Shown: positions 16,772 through 63,127, numbered from the stretch's first letter. The stretch is 64,000 bases of DNA from Escherichia phage vB_EcoM-pEB20 (OP114733), one strand, 5' to 3'. Notes: generated from the letters alone by a model not told the origin. Translations and numbers: made by a program.

Positions 16772-16986
16772 TGGCTTCTACTATTACTGGGTTATTGGAC
16801 TTTCAAGAAAAGGTCAACAAAATTTGTAGTGAATACTTAAAGTATCTTGAAGAAGACCTTGAAGATTGTAAGGAAGAAGGCGAAGAAGACTATGCTGACC
16901 AGCGTCGACGCCAAATCGAAGAGATGAGGCATTTCGCCAATATAGTATCTAAAGAATCTTGGGCTTTAACTCCATTTTATCAATAA
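16771..16986 (+). CDS. small acidic hypothetical protein
   Basis: 71 aa ORF. Confidence 0.45.
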   Translation: MASTITGLLDFQEKVNKICSEYLKYLEEDLEDCKEEGEEDYADQRRRQIEEMRHFANIVSKESWALTPFYQ

Positions 16987-16990
16987 AGTA

Positions 16991-17040
16991 GTTTACTTCT
17001 CCTCTAGTTGTGTTACTATAGACCTGTCAACTAGAGGAGA
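16991..17040 (+). promoter_or_regulatory. early promoter with 13-bp IR TCTCCTCTAGTTG/CAACTAGAGGAGA spanning -10 and SD
   Basis: GTTTAC 16991, -10 TACTAT 17015; 3' arm includes GAGGAGA SD of regB. Confidence 0.55.
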
Positions 17041-17047
17041 AATCAAA

Positions 17048-17506
17048 ATGACTATCAATTCAGACGTTTTTATCCGCCGTAATAAACTCCGTCGAATCTT
17101 TGAAACGGAGTTCCGCAAAATAAATGCCGGTATAAAAGATGCTGCAAAGTCTCTTGGACTACCAGGCTTTCATATCAAGTATTCTCAACATCTCTTAGAT
17201 CGTGCCATCCAGAGAGAAATAGATGAGAATTACGTTTTTGAATTATTTCATAAAGTAAAAAATCACGTTAAAGAAGTTGCAGAATTTTTGTCAATGCCGG
17301 CACGTCCAGATGTTGATGAAGATTTTGTCGAAGGTGTCGAGTATCGTCCAGGCCGTTTAGAAATAACTGACGGAAATCTTTGGTTAGGACTTACAGTTTG
17401 TCGCGAAAATCCGGCATTCAAAATGAAGACTCTTCAATGCAGAATGGCTATTATTAACAGTAAACGACTACCAGGAAAAGCTTCTAAAGCAGTGATTAAA
17501 ATCTAG
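17048..17506 (+). CDS. regB: endoribonuclease RegB
   Basis: 152 aa MTINSDVFIRRNKLRR...; near-identical to T4 RegB as recalled. Confidence 0.9.
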   Translation: MTINSDVFIRRNKLRRIFETEFRKINAGIKDAAKSLGLPGFHIKYSQHLLDRAIQREIDENYVFELFHKVKNHVKEVAEFLSMPARPDVDEDFVEGVEYRPGRLEITDGNLWLGLTVCRENPAFKMKTLQCRMAIINSKRLPGKASKAVIKI

Positions 17507-17514
17507 AGGTAAAC

Positions 17515-18057
17515 ATGAGAAAAGCACTACTCGCTGGTCTATTTGCTCTTTCATTATCAGCACATAGCTCCGAGCATACTTTTAGTAATGTCCAACTCGA
17601 TAACTTGAATTATGCTTATCAGTTTGGGGAACAGTTTTCTAAGGACGGAAAATTTAAAACGCATGAAAATATGCATAAGAAAGGACTTGGATACATAATG
17701 GCCGCAATACTATGGCAGGAATCATCCGCCGGTATTAATCTTAAAGATAAGAAAGGTCACCATGCGTATGGAATGTTCCAAAATTATCTACCAACAATGA
17801 GGGCAAGAATTAACCAGCTTGGTTATAATATGACTGATGCCCAAATTAAGAAAATGCTATCTAAGCGGTCTAATTCAGCCAGATGGGCTTATATCGAATT
17901 TTCTTATTGGTTAAATATACATAACGGGGATATAAGAAAAGCTATATCCTCATATAATGCGGGATGGAAGACAAGTGCTGGAAGTAAATATGCTTCTGAA
18001 GTCCTAGAAAAGGCTAATTACCTTAAATCAAATAAACTACTGGAAATAAAAGAATGA
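17515..18057 (+). CDS. secreted lytic transglycosylase-like (SLT domain) protein
   Basis: Signal peptide; E-S catalytic motif (LWQESSAG), GMFQ and YNAG motifs of SLT family. Confidence 0.65.
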   Translation: MRKALLAGLFALSLSAHSSEHTFSNVQLDNLNYAYQFGEQFSKDGKFKTHENMHKKGLGYIMAAILWQESSAGINLKDKKGHHAYGMFQNYLPTMRARINQLGYNMTDAQIKKMLSKRSNSARWAYIEFSYWLNIHNGDIRKAISSYNAGWKTSAGSKYASEVLEKANYLKSNKLLEIKE

Positions 18058-18401
18058 CCAAAATGTTGGCTTTAATAGTTGGCTTGGTTTCATTTAACGC
18101 TCTTGCTAATACTACATATACTGATGTAACGGAGTATACAAACAGAACGGCGTCTGATTATTGCGGTAAAAGTCAAGAGTGTAAAGTAGATTTTTCACAA
18201 AAATTGTTATATGCGTATAAAGACGGAGAAAAAGATGGGGCGTCTAGTAGGTTCAAGGCGTCTACCTTAATTAAAAGATACTATAAAAAATGGCAAATAT
18301 TAGAATGCTCGGTGGCGGAACCTAAAGATAAGGCAGCATGCAATTCTATGGTGGACCGTCTAGTTGACTCTTATAATAGAGGACTTGCAGCAAGTGATTA
18401 A
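18054..18401 (+). CDS. secreted Cys-containing hypothetical protein
   Basis: 115 aa with signal peptide MTKMLALIVGLVSFNALA and 4 Cys. Confidence 0.55.
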   Translation: MTKMLALIVGLVSFNALANTTYTDVTEYTNRTASDYCGKSQECKVDFSQKLLYAYKDGEKDGASSRFKASTLIKRYYKKWQILECSVAEPKDKAACNSMVDRLVDSYNRGLAASD

Positions 18402-18861
18402 AAACTATATCAAGGGCGATATTGTCGCCCTGTTTTCTAAAGGTAATAATATTGCTCACGGGTGTAATTGTTTTCATACAATGGGCGCCGGTGTAGCAGG
18501 CCAATTAGCAAAGGCTTATCCAAAAATTTTAGAAGCCGATAAACTTCAAACCGAATTCGGAGACGAGTCTAAACTCGGGACTTATTCGGTTTATGAAAAA
18601 TATTTTAAGACCCATAAAGCTTATTGCTTTAATCTTTATACACAGTTTGAGCCGGGACCTAATTTTGAGTACTCTGCTTTAATGAATTGTATAATAGAAT
18701 TAAATGAATTCGGAAAGAATAAGATAACAAAGCCTGTAATTTATATGCCAAGAATTGGTGCAGGTATTGGTGGTGGAAACTGGGATGTCATCGAAGAGAT
18801 TTTAGATACGTATTCCACTAAACTAGAAATTGTGATTGTTGATTGGGAACCGTTATTATGA
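18394..18861 (+). CDS. macro-domain-like protein (putative ADP-ribose binding/hydrolase)
   Basis: About 155 aa; GDIVAL...HGCNC...MGAGVAGQ and PRIGAGIGGG resemble macro domain motifs; start uncertain (GTG 18394 or TTG 18364). Confidence 0.55.
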   Translation: MIKNYIKGDIVALFSKGNNIAHGCNCFHTMGAGVAGQLAKAYPKILEADKLQTEFGDESKLGTYSVYEKYFKTHKAYCFNLYTQFEPGPNFEYSALMNCIIELNEFGKNKITKPVIYMPRIGAGIGGGNWDVIEEILDTYSTKLEIVIVDWEPLL

Positions 18862-19070
18862 ATATACATTATCCACATCCATATGATCCAAAGAATAAGG
18901 CAGTAATTATTCGTCAATGGGAACGCATTTGTCGTACTAAATGTCCAATTAATAGTCCACATGATGTAGATAAAGACTACATCGGAACATTCGTTGAATA
19001 TACCTTTATTGATAAGAAAGGCCGTAAACAACATGTAGAAGAATATTGCTTAAAGGTGACATGGCTATGA
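18858..19070 (+). CDS. hypothetical protein
   Basis: 70 aa; ATGA overlap. Confidence 0.45.
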   Translation: MNIHYPHPYDPKNKAVIIRQWERICRTKCPINSPHDVDKDYIGTFVEYTFIDKKGRKQHVEEYCLKVTWL

Positions 19071-19273
19071 GTCAAACAAAAATTCTTACAGGTGCTAAAT
19101 GCGAAAAATGCGAATGGCCTGTAGTTTTTGCTTTATGCAATGACGAAATGGCTTGTGATTTTGATTATTGGTGTTACTGTTCGAACAAAGGTTGTAGCAA
19201 TCATAAAGGTGAAGGGTTTTACTCAGGATTTTACCCTTACCCAGATTTCGTTAAAGAAGGTGAACCTAAATGA
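19067..19273 (+). CDS. Cys-rich small protein (possible zinc binding)
   Basis: 68 aa with 8 Cys (CEKCEW...CNDEMAC...CYCSNKGC). Confidence 0.45.
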   Translation: MSQTKILTGAKCEKCEWPVVFALCNDEMACDFDYWCYCSNKGCSNHKGEGFYSGFYPYPDFVKEGEPK

Positions 19274-19452
19274 AATTGACTAAAGAAGAGAAAGCTAAAC
19301 TGTTCGAACTTATCCATGACCTATTGGATGAGCAAGCAGCCACCAATGCGTACGATGAATATGCTCCTTTAACAGATGAAGAATATAATGCATTGATGGA
19401 ATCATTTGACAGGAAAGAACAAGAACTCATTGACTACGTGAATTCACTATAA
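19270..19452 (+). CDS. small acidic hypothetical protein
   Basis: 60 aa; ATGA overlap. Confidence 0.45.
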   Translation: MKLTKEEKAKLFELIHDLLDEQAATNAYDEYAPLTDEEYNALMESFDRKEQELIDYVNSL

Positions 19453-19461
19453 AGGACTCTT

Positions 19462-20043
19462 ATGGCTAGTTTAATTTTTACCTATGCCGCTATGAACGCT
19501 GGTAAGTCTGCTTCATTACTTACTGCCGCACATAACTATAAAGAACGTGGCATGGGTGTATTAGTTCTTAAACCGGCTATTGATACTCGCGATTCAAAAG
19601 GTGAAATAGTCTCTCGTATTGGTATTCGTCAGGATGCCAATATAATTACAAAAGACATGGATATCTTTGAATTCTATAAATGGGCTGCAGCACAAAAGGA
19701 TATTCACTGTGTATTTGTTGACGAAGCTCAGTTCTTAACTACTGAAAAGGTGTATCAACTTAGTCGTATTGTTGACGTATACAATGTGCCGGTAATGGCA
19801 TATGGACTACGAACAGATTTTAAAGGTAATCTATTTGAAGGTTCTCAAGCATTAATGGCTATTGCCGATAAGCTTGTTGAACTTAAAGGTGTCTGTCATT
19901 GTGGTAAAAAGGCCACAATGGTAGCTAGAGTCACGGAAGACGGACTTCCAATTACAGATGGCAGTCAAATTGAAATTGGTGATACAGATAGATACGTGTC
20001 ATTATGCCGGAAGCATTGGAACGATTTGACAGGGTTGTTATAA
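19462..20043 (+). CDS. tk: thymidine kinase
   Basis: 193 aa; P-loop AMNAGKS, VDEAQF, C-terminal zinc ribbon CHCGKK...CRKH. Confidence 0.95.
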   Translation: MASLIFTYAAMNAGKSASLLTAAHNYKERGMGVLVLKPAIDTRDSKGEIVSRIGIRQDANIITKDMDIFEFYKWAAAQKDIHCVFVDEAQFLTTEKVYQLSRIVDVYNVPVMAYGLRTDFKGNLFEGSQALMAIADKLVELKGVCHCGKKATMVARVTEDGLPITDGSQIEIGDTDRYVSLCRKHWNDLTGLL

Positions 20044-20070
20044 ATACTAATATCTAACCAAGAGGTATAT

Positions 20071-20283
20071 ATGCAGCAATTAAACGAAAGACAACTTCGT
20101 AATCTTACTGTAACCCAATTGGATGAAATCCGAAGAGAATTAGGACATTCTATTTCTCATTTAAACGAGGATATCCGTCAAACTGGTTCTAAAGCTGATT
20201 ATACACGCAAGCGCAAGCTGGAAAAATACCTCACAGATGTTAAGGCCGTCCAAAGGCGAAAAATAAATACTGGCCAAAATTAA
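20071..20283 (+). CDS. hypothetical basic protein
   Basis: 70 aa ORF; TATAAATA late-promoter-like element at 20039-20046. Confidence 0.5.
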
Positions 20284-56068: not shown

Positions 56069-57511
56069 GTGGTAGAAATTATTTTGTCTCATCTAGTATA
56101 TGACCAGGCTTATTTTTCTAAGGTCTGGCCTTATATGGATTCTGAGTATTTTGAGCGTGGACCGGCAAAAAATGTCTTTAAAATTATAAAGAGCCACGTT
56201 AACGAATATAATGCAATGCCATCTATCAATGCGTTAAAGGTGGCTTTAGATAACAGTTCTTTAACTGAAGCCGAATATAAAGGAACTTCAGACCTAATTG
56301 AAAAATTGGCTGATACTCCTGAAGACCACGAATGGTTGGTTAAAGAAACCGAGAAATATGTCCAGCAAAAAGCGATGTATAATGCTACGTCCAAAATCAT
56401 TGAGATTCAGTCTAATGCTGAACTACCTCCAGAACAACGTAACAAGAAAATGCCTGACGTAGGAGCTATTCCTGATATTATGCGTCAAGCACTTTCAATT
56501 TCGTTCGATAGTTATGTTGGACATGACTGGATGGAAGACTACGAAGCACGCTGGCTTTCTTATCTAAATAAAGCACGTAAGGTCCCGTTCAAATTAAACA
56601 TTTTGAATAAAATCACTAAAGGTGGTGCTGAAACCGGTACACTGAATGTTTTAATGGCCGGTGTTAACGTTGGTAAATCTTTAGGCCTTTGTTCACTTGC
56701 TGCAGATTATCTTCAAACAGGTCATAACGTTCTTTATATTTCTATGGAAATGGCTGAAGAAGTTTGTGCTAAGCGTATCGATGCAAACATGCTTGACGTA
56801 TCACTTGATGATATTGATGATGGTAACGTATCTTATGCTGAATATAAAGCCAAGATGGAAAAATGGCGTTCAAAATCCACATTAGGACGTTTAGTAGTTA
56901 AACAGTATCCTACTGGTGGAGCTAATGCTAATACATTTCGTGCATTGCTTAATGAGTTAAAACTTAAGAAGAACTTTGTACCATCTGTAATCATGGTTGA
57001 TTACTTAGGTATTTGTGGGTCTTGTCGTATCAGAGTTTACACTGAAAATAGCTACACATTAGTTAAAGCTATCGCAGAAGAACTTCGTGCATTAGCAGTA
57101 GAATCTGAAACAGTTCTATGGACTGCAGCTCAAGTAGGACGTGCAGCATGGGATGCTTCAGACATGAACATGAGTGATATCGCAGAATCAGCAGGTTTAC
57201 CAGCAACGGCAGATTTCATGTTGGCCGTAATTGAAACCGAAGAACTTGCACAAGCTGAACAACAACTTATCAAACAAATCAAATCACGATATGGCGATAA
57301 GAATAAGTGGAATAAATTCCTGATGGGTGTACGTAAAGGCAACCAGAAATGGGTTGAGATTGAGCAAGAAGGCATGAACACACCTAACACAGTAAATGAA
57401 AACGCAGGTGCTCAGATGCGTCAGGCAGAGGTGAATCGTACGGAACGCGTAGGTAAAGCCAAAGCAACACGTGCTGACCTAGATAGCTTAGCCAATGAGT
57501 TAAAATTTTAA
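56069..57511 (+). CDS. 41: replicative DNA helicase gp41
   Basis: 480 aa, GTG start; Walker A GVNVGKS; near-identical to T4 gp41 as recalled. Confidence 0.95.
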   Translation: MVEIILSHLVYDQAYFSKVWPYMDSEYFERGPAKNVFKIIKSHVNEYNAMPSINALKVALDNSSLTEAEYKGTSDLIEKLADTPEDHEWLVKETEKYVQQKAMYNATSKIIEIQSNAELPPEQRNKKMPDVGAIPDIMRQALSISFDSYVGHDWMEDYEARWLSYLNKARKVPFKLNILNKITKGGAETGTLNVLMAGVNVGKSLGLCSLAADYLQTGHNVLYISMEMAEEVCAKRIDANMLDVSLDDIDDGNVSYAEYKAKMEKWRSKSTLGRLVVKQYPTGGANANTFRALLNELKLKKNFVPSVIMVDYLGICGSCRIRVYTENSYTLVKAIAEELRALAVESETVLWTAAQVGRAAWDASDMNMSDIAESAGLPATADFMLAVIETEELAQAEQQLIKQIKSRYGDKNKWNKFLMGVRKGNQKWVEIEQEGMNTPNTVNENAGAQMRQAEVNRTERVGKAKATRADLDSLANELKF

Positions 57512-58347: not shown

Positions 58348-58532
58348 GCAAATTAACTAAAGTTACTTTTATCGGTTGGTTTAAAAGCGGTGAGATGTTC
58401 ACTAAAGATATCATGTTATCAGGTGATCGCGAAGAAATCGAGTGGGTTGCGGTACAACTTGCTGAAGTGAACAAAGCATTAGTTAAAGCATTTGTTAATG
58501 ACGAGAAAGTTTTCGAAGCAGATTTTCGATAA
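58344..58532 (+). CDS. dmd: Dmd antitoxin (inhibitor of RnlA/LsoA mRNA endoribonuclease toxins)
   Basis: 62 aa MSKLTKVTFIGWFKSGEMFTKDIML...EVNKALVKAF; closely matches T4 Dmd as recalled. Confidence 0.8.
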   Translation: MSKLTKVTFIGWFKSGEMFTKDIMLSGDREEIEWVAVQLAEVNKALVKAFVNDEKVFEADFR

Positions 58533-59640: not shown

Positions 59641-60291
59641 ATGATTTATTATATGCACAAAAACGCGCCATTTAAATATGGTAAATTTCCTAATGCACAA
59701 TGTTATAATATAACGCCGAATGAAAATAATAATGGATACCATATTGGTGTAATTTTTGTAATTGTTAAAGATAATGAAATCGTTGCCTGGGCAGATTTTA
59801 AAGGTACAACATATGATGTTAATCCGGTGCCTTTCACATATTACAATATAATGGATTTGGCATATGATTATAATTGGTTTAATCATGACACGTTGGCTCA
59901 TATTGAAGGTGTAGGATTTGACATCTCTTATTCTAGCTATTCATTATGTCCTATGAGCCGAGCTCACGGTAAAGATGCATCATATCTTTCAATTCGGAAA
60001 CGTGTAAACTTCAAACGTAGTACAGAGTATGTTGGTGGACTCTTTGTTAAAGATAATAAAATAACCCGTATTAGTTATCCTTTAAGTGTAGGTCAAAAAG
60101 ATGTTGATGTTGATTTGGACTTAACTGAAAATAACATTAATCGCATTGCTTCTGTATATTTTGATATCGATGAAAAAATTGTAGTGTGTGGATACGAATT
60201 ACCACCTGAAGAAAAGGCTGAAGCAATTGAAGTCGAATTAGAAATTTCTGTTGATGACCAAATATTTAATGCATTTATGAATCGAGGTTAA
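59641..60291 (+). CDS. hypothetical protein at T4 61.2 position
   Basis: 216 aa from ATG 59641 (AGGTGA SD); synteny only. Confidence 0.55.
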   Translation: MIYYMHKNAPFKYGKFPNAQCYNITPNENNNGYHIGVIFVIVKDNEIVAWADFKGTTYDVNPVPFTYYNIMDLAYDYNWFNHDTLAHIEGVGFDISYSSYSLCPMSRAHGKDASYLSIRKRVNFKRSTEYVGGLFVKDNKITRISYPLSVGQKDVDVDLDLTENNINRIASVYFDIDEKIVVCGYELPPEEKAEAIEVELEISVDDQIFNAFMNRG

Positions 60292-61016: not shown

Positions 61017-62039
61017 ATGGCTGAATGGATAGATAATGAATTTGCTTATCGTGCGTTTTCTCACCTACCTCGTTTTAGACAAATCAATAATTCAAGCACA
61101 TTTAAATTAACGTTTCGTTGTCCAGTTTGTGGCGACTCTCAGACAGATGCAATGAAAGCCCGCGGATGGTATTATGGCGGTACTCCTGGTAATGTACATT
61201 GCTATAACTGCCAATACCACAATACAATTTCCGGATACTTAAAAGAGTATGATGAAGAGCTTTATCGCGAATATCTAATGGAAGTTCGTAAAGAAAAGGC
61301 TAGAATGGAACCAAAGATTGAAAAGGTTCCTGAACATAAACCAGAACCGGAGAAAAAGACTATAAATTCTTTGCCGTCTTGTTCTCGTCTAGACAAGTTG
61401 CCTGAAGAGCATCCTATTGTGAAATATGTTAAGTCTCGGTGTATTCCTAAAGAATCGTGGAACAGATTATGGTTCACATTGGAATGGCCTAAATTGGTCA
61501 ACAAGATTCAACCTGGCACATATAAGAAAGAGATTCCCGAACCACGTTTAGTTATTCCTATTTTTAATAAAGATGGGAAGGCCGAGTCATTCCAAGGACG
61601 TGCACTTCGTAAAGATGCTCCTCAGAAATATATCACTATTAAAGCGTTTGAGTCTGCAACAAAAATTTATGGTGTTGAACGTGTTAAGGAAGGAGACGTC
61701 TGGGTAATGGAAGGCCCTATTGATAGTTTATTCATACCAAACGCAATCGCTATTACAGGCGGCTCAATAGATTTAGATGTGGTACCATTTAAAGAACGTC
61801 GGGTATGGGTAATGGATAATGAACCTAGGCATCCAGATACTATAGCTCGCATGAAGCGATTAGTTGATGCAGGCGAACGTGTCATGTTCTGGGACCGAGC
61901 TCCGTGGAGTTCAAAGGATGTGAATGATATGGTAATGAAAGAAAATGCAACACCACAAGAAATTTTAGAATATATGAAACAGAATATTTCAAGTGGGTTG
62001 CATGCTAAAATGAGATTATCTCGTTATTCGAAGATTTAA
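61017..62039 (+). CDS. 61: DNA primase gp61
   Basis: 340 aa; N-terminal zinc ribbon CPVCGDS...CYNC; TOPRIM-like region; T4 synteny. Confidence 0.95.
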   Translation: MAEWIDNEFAYRAFSHLPRFRQINNSSTFKLTFRCPVCGDSQTDAMKARGWYYGGTPGNVHCYNCQYHNTISGYLKEYDEELYREYLMEVRKEKARMEPKIEKVPEHKPEPEKKTINSLPSCSRLDKLPEEHPIVKYVKSRCIPKESWNRLWFTLEWPKLVNKIQPGTYKKEIPEPRLVIPIFNKDGKAESFQGRALRKDAPQKYITIKAFESATKIYGVERVKEGDVWVMEGPIDSLFIPNAIAITGGSIDLDVVPFKERRVWVMDNEPRHPDTIARMKRLVDAGERVMFWDRAPWSSKDVNDMVMKENATPQEILEYMKQNISSGLHAKMRLSRYSKI

Positions 62040-62890: not shown

Positions 62891-63127
62891 ATGGGTGGTT
62901 ATGTAAACATCAAAACCTTTACGCATCCTGCGGGTGAAGGTAAAGAAGTTAAAGGTATGGAAGTTTCTGTACCGTTTGAGATTTATTCAAACGAACATCG
63001 GATTGCAGATTCTCATTACCAAATCTTTCCATCAGAAAAGGCAGCTTATTCTACTGTAGTTTCTGATGCAGCTGACTGGAAAACTAAGAACGCTGCAATG
63101 TTTACCCCTACACCAGTAAGTGGTTAA
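62891..63127 (+). CDS. soc: small outer capsid protein Soc
   Basis: 78 aa GYVNIKTF...HYQIFPSEKAAYSTV matches T4 Soc. Confidence 0.85.
   Translation: MGGYVNIKTFTHPAGEGKEVKGMEVSVPFEIYSNEHRIADSHYQIFPSEKAAYSTVVSDAADWKTKNAAMFTPTPVSG

What the first reader, a model, noticed from the sequence alone, without database searches (positions are those of the whole stretch)
18394..18861. Macro-domain-like protein in the regB-tk interval
Motifs GDIVAL...HGCNC...MGAGVAGQ and PRIGAGIGGG resemble ADP-ribose-binding macro domains. T4-like phages ADP-ribosylate host proteins (Alt, ModA, ModB), and hosts use ADP-ribosylation of phage DNA (DarT) as defence. A phage macro domain could reverse host ADP-ribosylation or process ADP-ribose-derived signals.
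Basis: inference. Interest (0 to 1): 0.55.

Follow-up and report, generated by a model that had tools for sequence, protein, structure and literature searches.

The report
Phage macrodomain AdfM (T4 Tk.4 orthologue)
This is a real ADP-ribose-handling macrodomain gene, the counterpart of phage T4 gene tk.4, which a 2025 preprint showed protects T4 from the bacterial DarTG2 defence; it is therefore a correct but already known finding.

Summary
Window 18394-18861 (+) is a 155-aa ORF with a GTG start. It scores above Pfam's Macro cut-off (28.3 vs 22 bits) and models with high confidence as a macrodomain (pLDDT 95.9). Its closest solved structures are TARG1, Poa1p, BT1257, DarG and SCO6735.

The window is a T-even-type (Mosigvirus-like) coliphage. 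The gene is the orthologue of T4 tk.4: 85% identity, no gaps, and the same gene order regB-vs.1-vs-tk.4-tk.3-tk.2-tk.1-tk. tk.4 orthologues were matched to the macro (A1pp) domain in 2006.

A November 2025 preprint found tk.4 as the only T4 gene needed on a DarTG2 host. A clean knockout made T4 sensitive, and the gene was named adfM.

The most likely mechanism is removal of ADP-ribose that DarT2 puts on thymidines of phage DNA. This is inferred; it has not been shown biochemically for the T4-type protein.

One detail seems worth recording. The catalytic lysine of DarG, TARG1 and PhiKZ AdfM is an invariant glutamine here (Q84), as in the thymidine-ADPr hydrolase SCO6735. The SCO6735 lysines K34 and K89 and its long loop are absent.

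Verdict: reader correct, already known, low interest.

The parts
18394..18861 (+). adfM / tk.4 orthologue: single-domain macrodomain protein of 155 aa, GTG start, TGA stop
   Evidence: ORF and translation. Pfam Macro 28.3 bits vs GA 22. 85% identity without gaps to T4 Tk.4. AF2 pLDDT 95.9. Foldseek hits to TARG1, Poa1p, BT1257, DarG and SCO6735.
18379..18383 (+). Shine-Dalgarno GAGGA, about 11 nt upstream of the GTG start. The start overlaps the end of vs (GTGATTAA), which suggests translational coupling.
   Evidence: Sequence. Conserved in T4. The vs ORF ends at 18401.
18457..18468 (+). Codons H22-G23-C24-N25. They correspond to SCO6735 His24, Val25, Cys26 and Asn27; Asn27 locks the catalytic Gln in SCO6735 and is also needed in DarG.
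   Evidence: Conserved in >=90% of 71 family members. Invariant in distant phage homologues. Mapping by alignment. Residue roles from PMC9411070.
18481..18498 (+). Codons M30-A35 (MGAGVA): glycine-rich loop after strand 2, one of the two ADP-ribose-binding loops of macrodomains
   Evidence: G33 and A35 invariant, M30 and G31 >=90%. Aligns with TARG1 RMGAGIA.
18643..18645 (+). Codon Q84. It occupies the position of the catalytic Lys84 of TARG1, Lys80 of DarG and Lys78 of PhiKZ AdfM, and of Gln85 of SCO6735.
   Evidence: Invariant in the family. Profile alignment to TARG1 and BT1257. hhalign to PhiKZ gp104. SCO6735 numbering checked. Equivalence stated in PMC9411070.
18748..18783 (+). Codons P119-W130 (PRIGAGIGGGNW): phosphate-binding loop. 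G122 and G124 correspond to SCO6735 Gly126 and Gly128. G126 is at the position of TARG1 Asp125.
   Evidence: P119, I121, G122 and G124 invariant. Alignments.
18413..18431 (+). Stem-loop AGGGCGAUAUUGUCGCCCU followed by a U-rich run, 20 nt inside the ORF. It is a possible attenuator or transcript-end element; membership in the system is uncertain.
   Evidence: Terminator-like hit. About -13 kcal/mol, z about -2.5. Identical in T4 and phage teqdroes, absent in Klebsiella phage F48. Annotated 'terminator' in phage NBG1.
18858..19070 (+). Downstream gene tk.3 (DUF7202). Its ATG overlaps the macro stop codon (ATGA). Given as context, not shown to be functionally linked.
   Evidence: Pfam DUF7202 match begins at the Met encoded at 18858. 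T4 gene order.

Best explanation
The ORF encodes the orthologue of T4 Tk.4 (AdfM), a free-standing macrodomain enzyme. It is made as part of the regB-tk gene string, without a recognisable promoter of its own.

When the phage infects a cell carrying the DarTG2 toxin-antitoxin defence, the DarT2 toxin attaches ADP-ribose from NAD+ to thymidine N3 in single-stranded phage DNA, which blocks replication. AdfM binds the ADP-ribose moiety in the cleft formed by the MGAGVA loop and the PRIGAGIGGG loop. It then hydrolyses the ribose-thymine bond, releasing ADP-ribose and restoring intact DNA. In effect it acts as an orphan antitoxin.

The active site is of the glutamine type (H22, N25, Q84, G122, G124). 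Catalysis is therefore expected to follow the water-mediated, substrate-positioning mechanism proposed for SCO6735, not the lysine-dependent mechanism of DarG or TARG1.

Shown: the macrodomain identity, the orthology to T4 tk.4, and (in T4, by others) the genetic requirement on DarTG2 hosts. Inferred: the hydrolase activity and substrate of this protein, and the catalytic mechanism.
For: Macrodomain identity:
- Pfam Macro above its cut-off.
- AF2 model pLDDT 95.9.
- Foldseek hits to TARG1, Poa1p, BT1257, three DarG macrodomains and SCO6735, all at probability 1.00.
- PADLOC DarG model E=9e-9, over its macrodomain part only.

Orthology to T4 tk.4:
- 131/155 identical residues, no gaps.
- Identical gene order regB, vs.1, vs, tk.4, tk.3, tk.2, tk.1, tk.
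- None of the 24 differences falls on a conserved family position.

Genetics in T4:
- tk.4 was the only significant hit on a DarTG2 host, and the knockout is sensitive.
- T4 lacking adfA and adfN stays DarTG2-resistant, which implied a further factor.

Enzymology of relatives:
- SCO6735 carries Gln at the same position, removes DarT-made thymidine-ADPr faster than DarG or TARG1, and rescues cells from DarT. Its Q85A and N27S mutants lose activity.
- Q84, N25, H22, G122 and G124 are invariant or nearly so in 71 homologues and in distant phage members.
- An unrelated-lineage phage macrodomain, PhiKZ AdfM, was shown biochemically to remove T-ADPr and to counter DarTG2.
Against: - No biochemical assay exists for T4 Tk.4 or for this protein. 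The preprint itself only calls enzymatic removal 'likely'.
- The protein lacks the catalytic Lys of DarG, TARG1 and PhiKZ AdfM.
- It also lacks the SCO6735 DNA-positioning Lys34 (here A32) and Lys89 (here G88), and the longer mobile loop.
- Macrodomains of this class also act on Glu/Asp-linked protein ADP-ribose, so DNA may not be the only substrate. Activity on small ADP-ribose metabolites is known for the class from general knowledge.
- Catalytically dead SCO6735 still inhibits DarT, so protection need not be purely enzymatic.
- A 36%-identical homologue in an Acinetobacter phage sits directly behind NAD-salvage genes, hinting at other roles in some lineages.
- The genetic evidence is for T4, not for this Mosigvirus-like phage, and comes from a preprint.
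Confidence: 0.78

Rival explanations
1. It is a small-molecule ADP-ribose metabolite enzyme, as the database label 'phosphatase' implies. It would be an ADP-ribose-1''-phosphate phosphatase or O-acetyl-ADP-ribose deacetylase of the Poa1p type, tidying NAD-derived metabolites or feeding NAD+ salvage during infection.
For: Yeast Poa1p is among the best sequence and fold matches. Poa1p His23 aligns with H22 and Ser30 with T29 (mutant names). PHROG 335 and RefSeq label the family 'phosphatase'. A homologue in Acinetobacter phage 14/CRR8 lies directly downstream of ribose-phosphate pyrophosphokinase and nicotinamide phosphoribosyltransferase.
Against: The 'phosphatase' name derives from the old A1pp domain name, not from an assay. 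Poa1p Phe152 aligns with G126 and is not conserved. The only phenotype known for the T4 orthologue is on DarTG2 hosts. T-even phages have no NAD-salvage genes next to this gene.
Confidence: 0.1
2. It protects against DarT2 without catalysis. It would bind and block the toxin as the C-terminal domain of DarG or ICP1 AdfB do, or merely bind ADP-ribosylated DNA.
For: Catalytically dead SCO6735 Q85A inhibits DarT in vitro more strongly than dead DarG or TARG1. ICP1 AdfB neutralises DarT, likely by direct interaction. The window protein lacks the canonical catalytic Lys.
Against: The residues required for SCO6735 hydrolysis (Gln, Asn, His and the two loop Gly) are invariant or nearly so across the phage family, which is what selection on catalysis predicts. 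There is no DarT-binding domain; the PADLOC DarG match covers only model positions 4-145 of 329.
Confidence: 0.07
3. It erases other ADP-ribosylation: the phage's own Alt/ModA/ModB marks, including RNAylation, or marks made by other host ADP-ribosyltransferase defences such as CmdTAC on mRNA.
For: T-even phages encode ADP-ribosyltransferases; modA and modB are annotated in T4. TARG1-class macrodomains act on several linkages. RNA ADP-ribosylation defences against T-even phages exist (CmdTAC abstract).
Against: From general knowledge, not tested here: Alt, ModA and ModB modify arginine, a linkage cleaved by ARH-type enzymes and not by macrodomains. CmdTAC gives robust defence against T-even phages that carry tk.4 (abstract), so tk.4 does not neutralise it. 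SCO6735 is inactive on guanine-ADPr. The T4 screen phenotype was specific to DarTG2.
Confidence: 0.05

Closest known systems
T4 Tk.4 = AdfM (anti-DarT factor Macrodomain; bioRxiv 10.1101/2025.11.20.689424)
   Same: Orthologue. Both are 155 aa, with 85% identity and no gaps. The flanking genes are the same (vs upstream; tk.3, tk.2, tk.1 and tk downstream). All conserved family residues are shared, including Q84.
   Different: There are 24 substitutions, for example G127 here against K127 in T4. The start is GTG instead of ATG. The host phage is a Mosigvirus-like relative, not T4. The anti-DarTG2 phenotype has been tested only in T4.
SCO6735 (Streptomyces coelicolor) / Bt_1257 subclass of ALC1-like macrodomains
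   Same: Gln sits at the catalytic position (Q85 vs Q84). The Asn, His and the two phosphate-loop Gly are conserved. SCO6735 is a proven thymidine-ADPr DNA hydrolase and rescues cells from DarT.
   Different: Identity is only 23-31%. The phage protein lacks Lys34 (A32) and Lys89 (G88), and its loop after the Gln is about 5-6 residues shorter. SCO6735 is a chromosomal bacterial gene, not a phage gene.
DarG2 antitoxin macrodomain (T. aquaticus 5M31/5M3E, M. tuberculosis 5M3I)
   Same: Same fold (TM about 0.75) and the same proposed job of undoing DarT2 thymidine ADP-ribosylation. It matches the PADLOC and NCBIfam DarG models over the macrodomain.
   Different: There is no C-terminal DarT-binding domain. 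The catalytic Lys80 is replaced by Gln. The NCBIfam score of 31.9 bits is far below the equivalog cut-off of 250. No linked toxin gene is present.
PhiKZ gp104 AdfM (chimallivirus macrodomain; Cell Rep 2026, PMC13309987)
   Same: A phage-encoded single macrodomain that counters DarTG2. It was shown biochemically to remove T-ADPr from DNA.
   Different: It is only remotely related: BLASTP finds a 23-residue patch and hhalign gives probability 96%. It is Lys-type (K78 aligns with Q84). It is late-expressed and imported into the phage nucleus.
Human TARG1/OARD1
   Same: Top Foldseek hit (E=5.9e-10), with a profile match of 1.2e-16. According to the SCO6735 paper it also cleaves thymidine-linked ADPr DNA.
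   Different: The TARG1 catalytic residues Lys84 and Asp125 correspond to Q84 and G126 here.
Yeast Poa1p (ADP-ribose 1''-phosphate phosphatase)
   Same: High fold similarity (TMq about 0.80). The HxCNC motif and the following Ser/Thr are shared.
   Different: Poa1p Phe152 is not conserved. Poa1p acts on a tRNA-splicing by-product, and no such role is known for the phage protein.

Membership tests
Macrodomain superfamily (Pfam PF01661) | Score above Pfam's gathering threshold | tested here: met
   28.3 bits vs 22, E=1.9e-6, residues 22-136 over model positions 2-117 of 118.
Macrodomain superfamily (Pfam PF01661) | Three-layer alpha/beta/alpha macro fold | tested here: met
   AF2 pLDDT 95.9 and pTM 0.91. 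All 50 listed Foldseek PDB hits (of 130 with E<=0.001) are macrodomains or designed proteins related to one, at probability 1.00.
T4 Tk.4 / AdfM orthologous group | Full-length high identity to T4 Tk.4 | tested here: met
   131/155 identical, 146/155 similar, no gaps.
T4 Tk.4 / AdfM orthologous group | Conserved position between vs and tk.3 in the regB-tk string | tested here: met
   Window order by Pfam and PHROG equals the T4 annotation.
T4 Tk.4 / AdfM orthologous group | Confers resistance to DarTG2 | not testable with these tools
   Shown only for T4 by transposon screen and clean knockout.
DarG2 antitoxin (NCBIfam NF048014 equivalog) | Score above the curated equivalog cut-off | tested here: not met
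   31.9 bits vs cut-off 250.
DarG2 antitoxin (NCBIfam NF048014 equivalog) | C-terminal DarT-binding domain and an adjacent darT gene | tested here: not met
   The protein is 155 aa and matches only positions 4-145 of 329 in the PADLOC DarG model. The neighbours are vs and tk.3.
DarG2 antitoxin (NCBIfam NF048014 equivalog) | Catalytic lysine (Lys80 in T. aquaticus DarG) | tested here: not met
   The equivalent position is Q84.
TARG1/OARD1 | Catalytic Lys84 and Asp125 | tested here: not met
   The profile alignment puts Q84 under Lys84 and G126 under Asp125.
SCO6735/Bt_1257 subclass (Gln-type thymidine-ADPr hydrolases) | Gln at the catalytic position, held by a conserved Asn, plus His24 and Gly126/Gly128 | tested here: met
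   Q84, N25, H22, G122 and G124 align with them and are invariant or >=90% conserved.
SCO6735/Bt_1257 subclass (Gln-type thymidine-ADPr hydrolases) | Extended 'mobile loop' and DNA-positioning Lys34 and Lys89 | tested here: not met
   The loop is 5-6 residues shorter. Lys34 corresponds to A32 and Lys89 to G88. The feature is defined in PMC9411070.
Poa1p-like ADP-ribose-1''-phosphate phosphatase | Residues probed in the Poa1p structures (His23, Ser30, Phe152) | tested here: inconclusive
   His23 aligns with H22 and Ser30 with T29, but Phe152 aligns with G126. The Poa1p paper was not available, so the roles of these residues were not checked.
PhiKZ-type AdfM | Close sequence relationship and active-site Asn23/Lys78 | tested here: not met
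   BLASTP finds only a 23-aa local match. hhalign gives probability 96% with K78 aligned to Q84. The Asn is shared.
MacroD-type hydrolases | Catalytic Asp in the Nx6GG[VLI]D motif (definition from general knowledge) | tested here: not met
   The corresponding stretch is N25-CFHTM-GAGVA, with invariant A35 where the Asp would be.

The most novel reading that the evidence does not exclude
T4-type AdfM proteins form a separate, largely phage-borne branch of ALC1-like macrodomains. They combine the SCO6735-type catalytic glutamine with a short TARG1-like loop and have none of the known DNA-positioning lysines. Their chemistry or substrate range may therefore differ from both DarG and SCO6735. Possible extra substrates are other ADP-ribose linkages on nucleic acids or proteins, or NAD-derived metabolites, as the NAMPT-adjacent homologues hint. 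On this reading, DarT2 reversal is only one of their roles.
Probability: 0.15. Interest if true: 0.45.

Novelty: already known. Interest (0 to 1): 0.15.

Why it matters
It confirms that this phage carries the macrodomain counter-defence against DarTG2. Within the same 64-kb window it also carries a homologue of AdfA (gp61.2), which fits the view that T-even phages stack several anti-DarT factors. This is useful for predicting host range on DarTG-bearing strains.

The only point that goes slightly beyond the literature I could read is that the T4-type AdfM has a glutamine-type active site like SCO6735, not a lysine-type one like DarG, TARG1 or PhiKZ AdfM. This gives a concrete mutational test (Q84, N25) for the still-missing biochemistry.

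Several public records start this gene at an internal ATG and so lose the first 29 residues, including H22 and N25. Those annotations should be corrected.

Tried and rejected
- The longer ORF from TTG 18364 was rejected. It lies inside the vs coding region, and T4 has an in-frame stop just before its ATG at the aligned position.
- The minus-strand ORFs overlapping the gene (18346-18504 and 18741-19034) were treated as spurious, since the + strand frame has strong homology.
- The promoter scan of 16900-20200 found no more sigma-70-like sites than in shuffled sequence (9 vs 11.7 +/- 3.7), so no own promoter is claimed.
- ICP1 AdfB was considered as a relative and rejected. It is described as acting through direct interaction with DarT and shares only low sequence identity with DarG.
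- PhiKZ AdfM was considered as the same family. It is only a remote relative with a Lys-type site.
- MAFFT placed PhiKZ K78 one column away from Q84. I preferred the hhalign register.
- Three literature look-ups failed because a search term ('T4') was too short. A broad search on 'macro' and one on 'AdfM' returned mostly noise. The Poa1p structure paper is not in the library.
- The CmdTAC paper does not mention tk.4 or a phage macrodomain.

Full report
**The observation.** The + strand of the window carries an ORF from GTG 18394 to the TGA ending at 18861, encoding 155 aa.

The ORF listing reports an earlier in-frame TTG at 18364, but that stretch lies inside the upstream gene. The GTG aligns exactly with the annotated ATG of T4 tk.4. 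In T4 an in-frame TAG sits immediately before that ATG, and a GAGGA Shine-Dalgarno lies about 11 nt upstream in both phages.

The start overlaps the stop of the upstream gene (GTGATTAA). The stop overlaps the ATG of the downstream gene (ATGA at 18858-18861). This suggests translational coupling on both sides.

**Is it a macrodomain?** Yes, on every line of evidence.
- Pfam PF01661 (Macro) matches residues 22-136 over nearly the whole model, at 28.3 bits against a gathering score of 22 (E=1.9e-6).
- PHROG 335 matches at 4.7e-67.
- The single sequence finds solved macrodomains: BT1257 at 6.5e-11, yeast Poa1p at 1e-8, SCO6735 at 7e-5, and DarG and TARG1 near 1e-3.
- A profile of 71 homologues raises these to 2e-17 for BT1257, 1.2e-16 for TARG1, 2.7e-14 for SCO6735, 2.3e-13 for Poa1p and 4e-13 to 1e-11 for the DarG macrodomains.
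- An AlphaFold2 model built on that alignment has mean pLDDT 95.9 and pTM 0.91.
- Its Foldseek hits in the PDB are TARG1, Poa1p, BT1257, three DarG macrodomains, a DarTG complex and SCO6735, all at probability 1.00 with TM 0.7-0.8.

**What the window is, and which gene this is.** The 3.1 kb around the gene is 99% identical to Mosigvirus-type T-even coliphages such as vB_EcoM_SA79RD, JK36 and NicPhage. Several of those records already call the gene 'macro domain protein' or 'phosphatase'.

The neighbours are:
- RegB endoribonuclease (17048-17506)
- an SLT-like protein, vs.1 (17515-18057)
- the valyl-tRNA synthetase modifier, vs (18054-18401)
- the macrodomain gene
- DUF7202, a phage zinc-binding protein and DUF7438
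- thymidine kinase (19462-20043)

This is exactly the T4 order regB, vs.1, vs, tk.4, tk.3, tk.2, tk.1, tk. The protein is 85% identical to T4 Tk.4 (131/155, 94% similar, no gaps), so the gene is the tk.4 orthologue.

Homologues occur in 2,799 of 50,697 phage records, across Escherichia, Klebsiella, Salmonella, Pseudomonas, Vibrio, Acinetobacter and Aeromonas phages. The metagenomic homologues that sit on long contigs are on contigs of phage-genome size.

**What is already known about tk.4.** A 2006 comparison of T4-like genomes already noted that tk.4 orthologues match the A1pp (macro) domain (PMC1524935). The RefSeq label 'phosphatase' comes from that domain name.

The HIDEN-SEQ preprint (bioRxiv 10.1101/2025.11.20.689424, November 2025) then screened a T4 transposon library on a DarTG2 host. 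It found tk.4 as the single significant hit and showed that a clean knockout is sensitised. The authors named the gene adfM and stated that enzymatic removal of ADP-ribose from DNA 'seems likely'.

Independently, a chimallivirus macrodomain, PhiKZ gp104, was also named AdfM. It was shown biochemically to remove thymidine-linked ADP-ribose and to counter several DarTG2 systems (PMC13309987).

**Active site.** In the 71-sequence family alignment the invariant positions are C26, G33, A35, D49, G62, N80, Y82, Q84, P119, I121, G122 and G124. Positions G8, H22, G23, C24, N25, M30, G31, P43, K60, L61, T83, G88, I125, G128 and W130 are at least 90% conserved. H22, N25, Q84, G122 and G124 also hold in a Saclayvirus and a Felixounavirus homologue at about 40% identity.

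The profile alignment places Q84 under TARG1 Lys84 and G126 under TARG1 Asp125. hhalign places Q84 under PhiKZ AdfM Lys78. The SCO6735 paper states that its Gln85 is the equivalent of TARG1 Lys84 and DarG Lys80. My alignment puts SCO6735 Gln85 and BT1257 Gln on Q84.

I checked the SCO6735 numbering against the PDB chain, which has an offset of 20. The mapping is:
- His24 to H22
- Val25 to G23
- Asn27 to N25
- Gly126 to G122
- Gly128 to G124
- Lys34 to A32 (not conserved)
- Lys89 to G88 (not conserved)

The 'mobile loop' that characterises the SCO6735/Bt_1257 subclass is 5-6 residues shorter in the phage protein.

SCO6735 hydrolyses DarT-made thymidine-ADPr faster than DarG or TARG1, is inactive on guanine-ADPr, and rescues cells from DarT. 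It loses activity in the Q85A and N27S mutants. A water-mediated mechanism was proposed for it, in which Gln positions the distal ribose.

The window protein thus has the catalytic core of a proven Gln-type thymidine-ADPr hydrolase, but not its DNA-positioning lysines. None of the 24 differences from T4 Tk.4 touches a conserved position.

**Mechanism proposed.** The gene has no promoter signal of its own above background. It is embedded in the regB-tk string, so it is probably co-transcribed and translationally coupled.

In a DarTG2 host, DarT2 ADP-ribosylates thymidines in single-stranded phage DNA and blocks replication (background). AdfM binds the ADP-ribose between the MGAGVA and PRIGAGIGGG loops and cleaves the ribose-thymine bond. 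This regenerates normal DNA.

The macrodomain identity and the orthology are shown here. The genetic requirement is shown in T4 by others. The enzymatic step, its Gln-dependent chemistry and its operation in this particular phage are inferred. I put this at about 0.78.

**Rivals.**
- *Metabolite enzyme of the Poa1p type.* Poa1p is among the best matches, and its His23 and Ser30 align with H22 and T29. However, Phe152 aligns with G126 and the 'phosphatase' label was never tested. One Acinetobacter phage homologue sits directly behind ribose-phosphate pyrophosphokinase and NAMPT, which keeps this alive for some lineages. About 0.10.
- *Non-catalytic DarT inhibitor.* Dead SCO6735 still inhibits DarT, but the strict conservation of the catalytic core argues for catalysis. 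About 0.07.
- *Eraser of other ADP-ribosylation, either phage Alt/ModA/ModB marks or CmdTAC marks on mRNA.* From general knowledge, arginine-linked ADP-ribose is not a macrodomain substrate. CmdTAC defends robustly against T-even phages that carry tk.4. The T4 phenotype was specific to DarTG2. About 0.05.

**Family membership.**
- It is a macrodomain (met).
- It is a member of the T4 Tk.4/AdfM orthologous group by identity and synteny (met); the phenotype cannot be tested here.
- It is not a DarG equivalog: NCBIfam gives 31.9 bits against a cut-off of 250, there is no C-terminal DarT-binding domain, no adjacent toxin and no catalytic Lys.
- It is not TARG1-type, since Lys84 and Asp125 are absent.
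- It shares the Gln-type core with SCO6735/Bt_1257 but fails that subclass's loop and lysine features.
- It is only remotely related to PhiKZ AdfM.

It works like DarG, SCO6735 and PhiKZ AdfM without belonging to any of those families.

**Novelty and score.** The gene is annotated as a macrodomain in many records, was recognised as such in 2006, and had its function assigned genetically in 2025. It is already known.

The small residual point is that T4-type AdfM is a Gln-type enzyme that lacks the SCO6735 lysines. None of the passages I read discussed this, and it gives a direct mutational test. Interest is 0.15.

**Side observations.**
- A stable stem-loop followed by a U-rich run sits 20 nt inside the ORF (18413-18431). 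It is identical in T4 and teqdroes, absent in Klebsiella phage F48, and annotated as a terminator in NBG1.
- Some public records start the gene at the internal ATG (window 18481) and lose residues 1-29.
- The window also encodes a gp61.2/AdfA homologue at 59641-60288.
- tk.4 exists as strongly diverged alleles within T-even coliphages: about 97%, 84% and 58% identity groups.

Noticed in passing
window 18413-18431 (+): A GC-rich stem-loop (AGGGCGAUAUUGUCGCCCU, about -13 kcal/mol) followed by a U-rich run lies 20 nt inside the macrodomain ORF, just after the end of vs. It is nucleotide-identical in T4 and in phage teqdroes, whose protein is only 59% identical overall. It is absent in Klebsiella phage F48, and phage NBG1 annotates it as a terminator. 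It may attenuate read-through into adfM or mark a transcript end.
   Followed up: partly
window 59641-60288 (+): This stretch encodes a homologue of T4 gp61.2 (AdfA, the first described anti-DarT factor): 66% identity over the full 208 aa by tblastn. The same window thus carries two anti-DarT genes. dmd (58353-58529), gene 41 (56069-57508), gene 61 (61026-62036) and soc (62897-63112) are nearby. modA and modB are not in the window.
   Followed up: partly
L001 2982-3362 (NicPhage OY726582) and L003 1288-1668 (NBG1 MH243438); equals window 18481: These public records annotate the macrodomain gene from an internal ATG. That removes the first 29 residues, including the conserved H22 and N25. This is probably why NBG1 can place a 'terminator' feature in what is really coding sequence.
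   Followed up: yes
L008 904-4474 (Acinetobacter phage vB_AbaM_14/CRR8): A 36%-identical homologue with the same H, N and Q core starts at the last base of a nicotinamide phosphoribosyltransferase gene. Ribose-phosphate pyrophosphokinase lies just upstream. The gene is thus embedded in an NAD+ salvage cluster, which hints at a link to NAD/ADP-ribose metabolism in that lineage.
   Followed up: partly
L009 2983-3768 (Escherichia phage radambza, Felixounavirus): Here the macrodomain is the N-terminal half of a 261-aa protein with an uncharacterised C-terminal extension of about 100 aa. PHROG 335 has a 422-position profile, consistent with longer architectures in the family.
   Followed up: no
L005 1501-1980 (Escherichia phage teqdroes) vs L002 (T4): Within Tequatrovirus, tk.4 exists as diverged alleles. 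The teqdroes protein is about 90% identical to T4 over roughly the first 50 residues and much more diverged afterwards (59% to the window protein overall). This suggests mosaic recombination inside the gene.
   Followed up: no
window 18054-18401 (+), gene vs: The upstream neighbour is the valyl-tRNA synthetase modifier. The HIDEN-SEQ preprint reports vs as the most strongly depleted T4 gene in minimal glucose medium compared with LB. A separate preprint caught T2 tk.4 mRNA paired with the host sRNA ArcZ in RIL-seq, and mislabelled tk.4 as a putative thymidine kinase.
   Followed up: no
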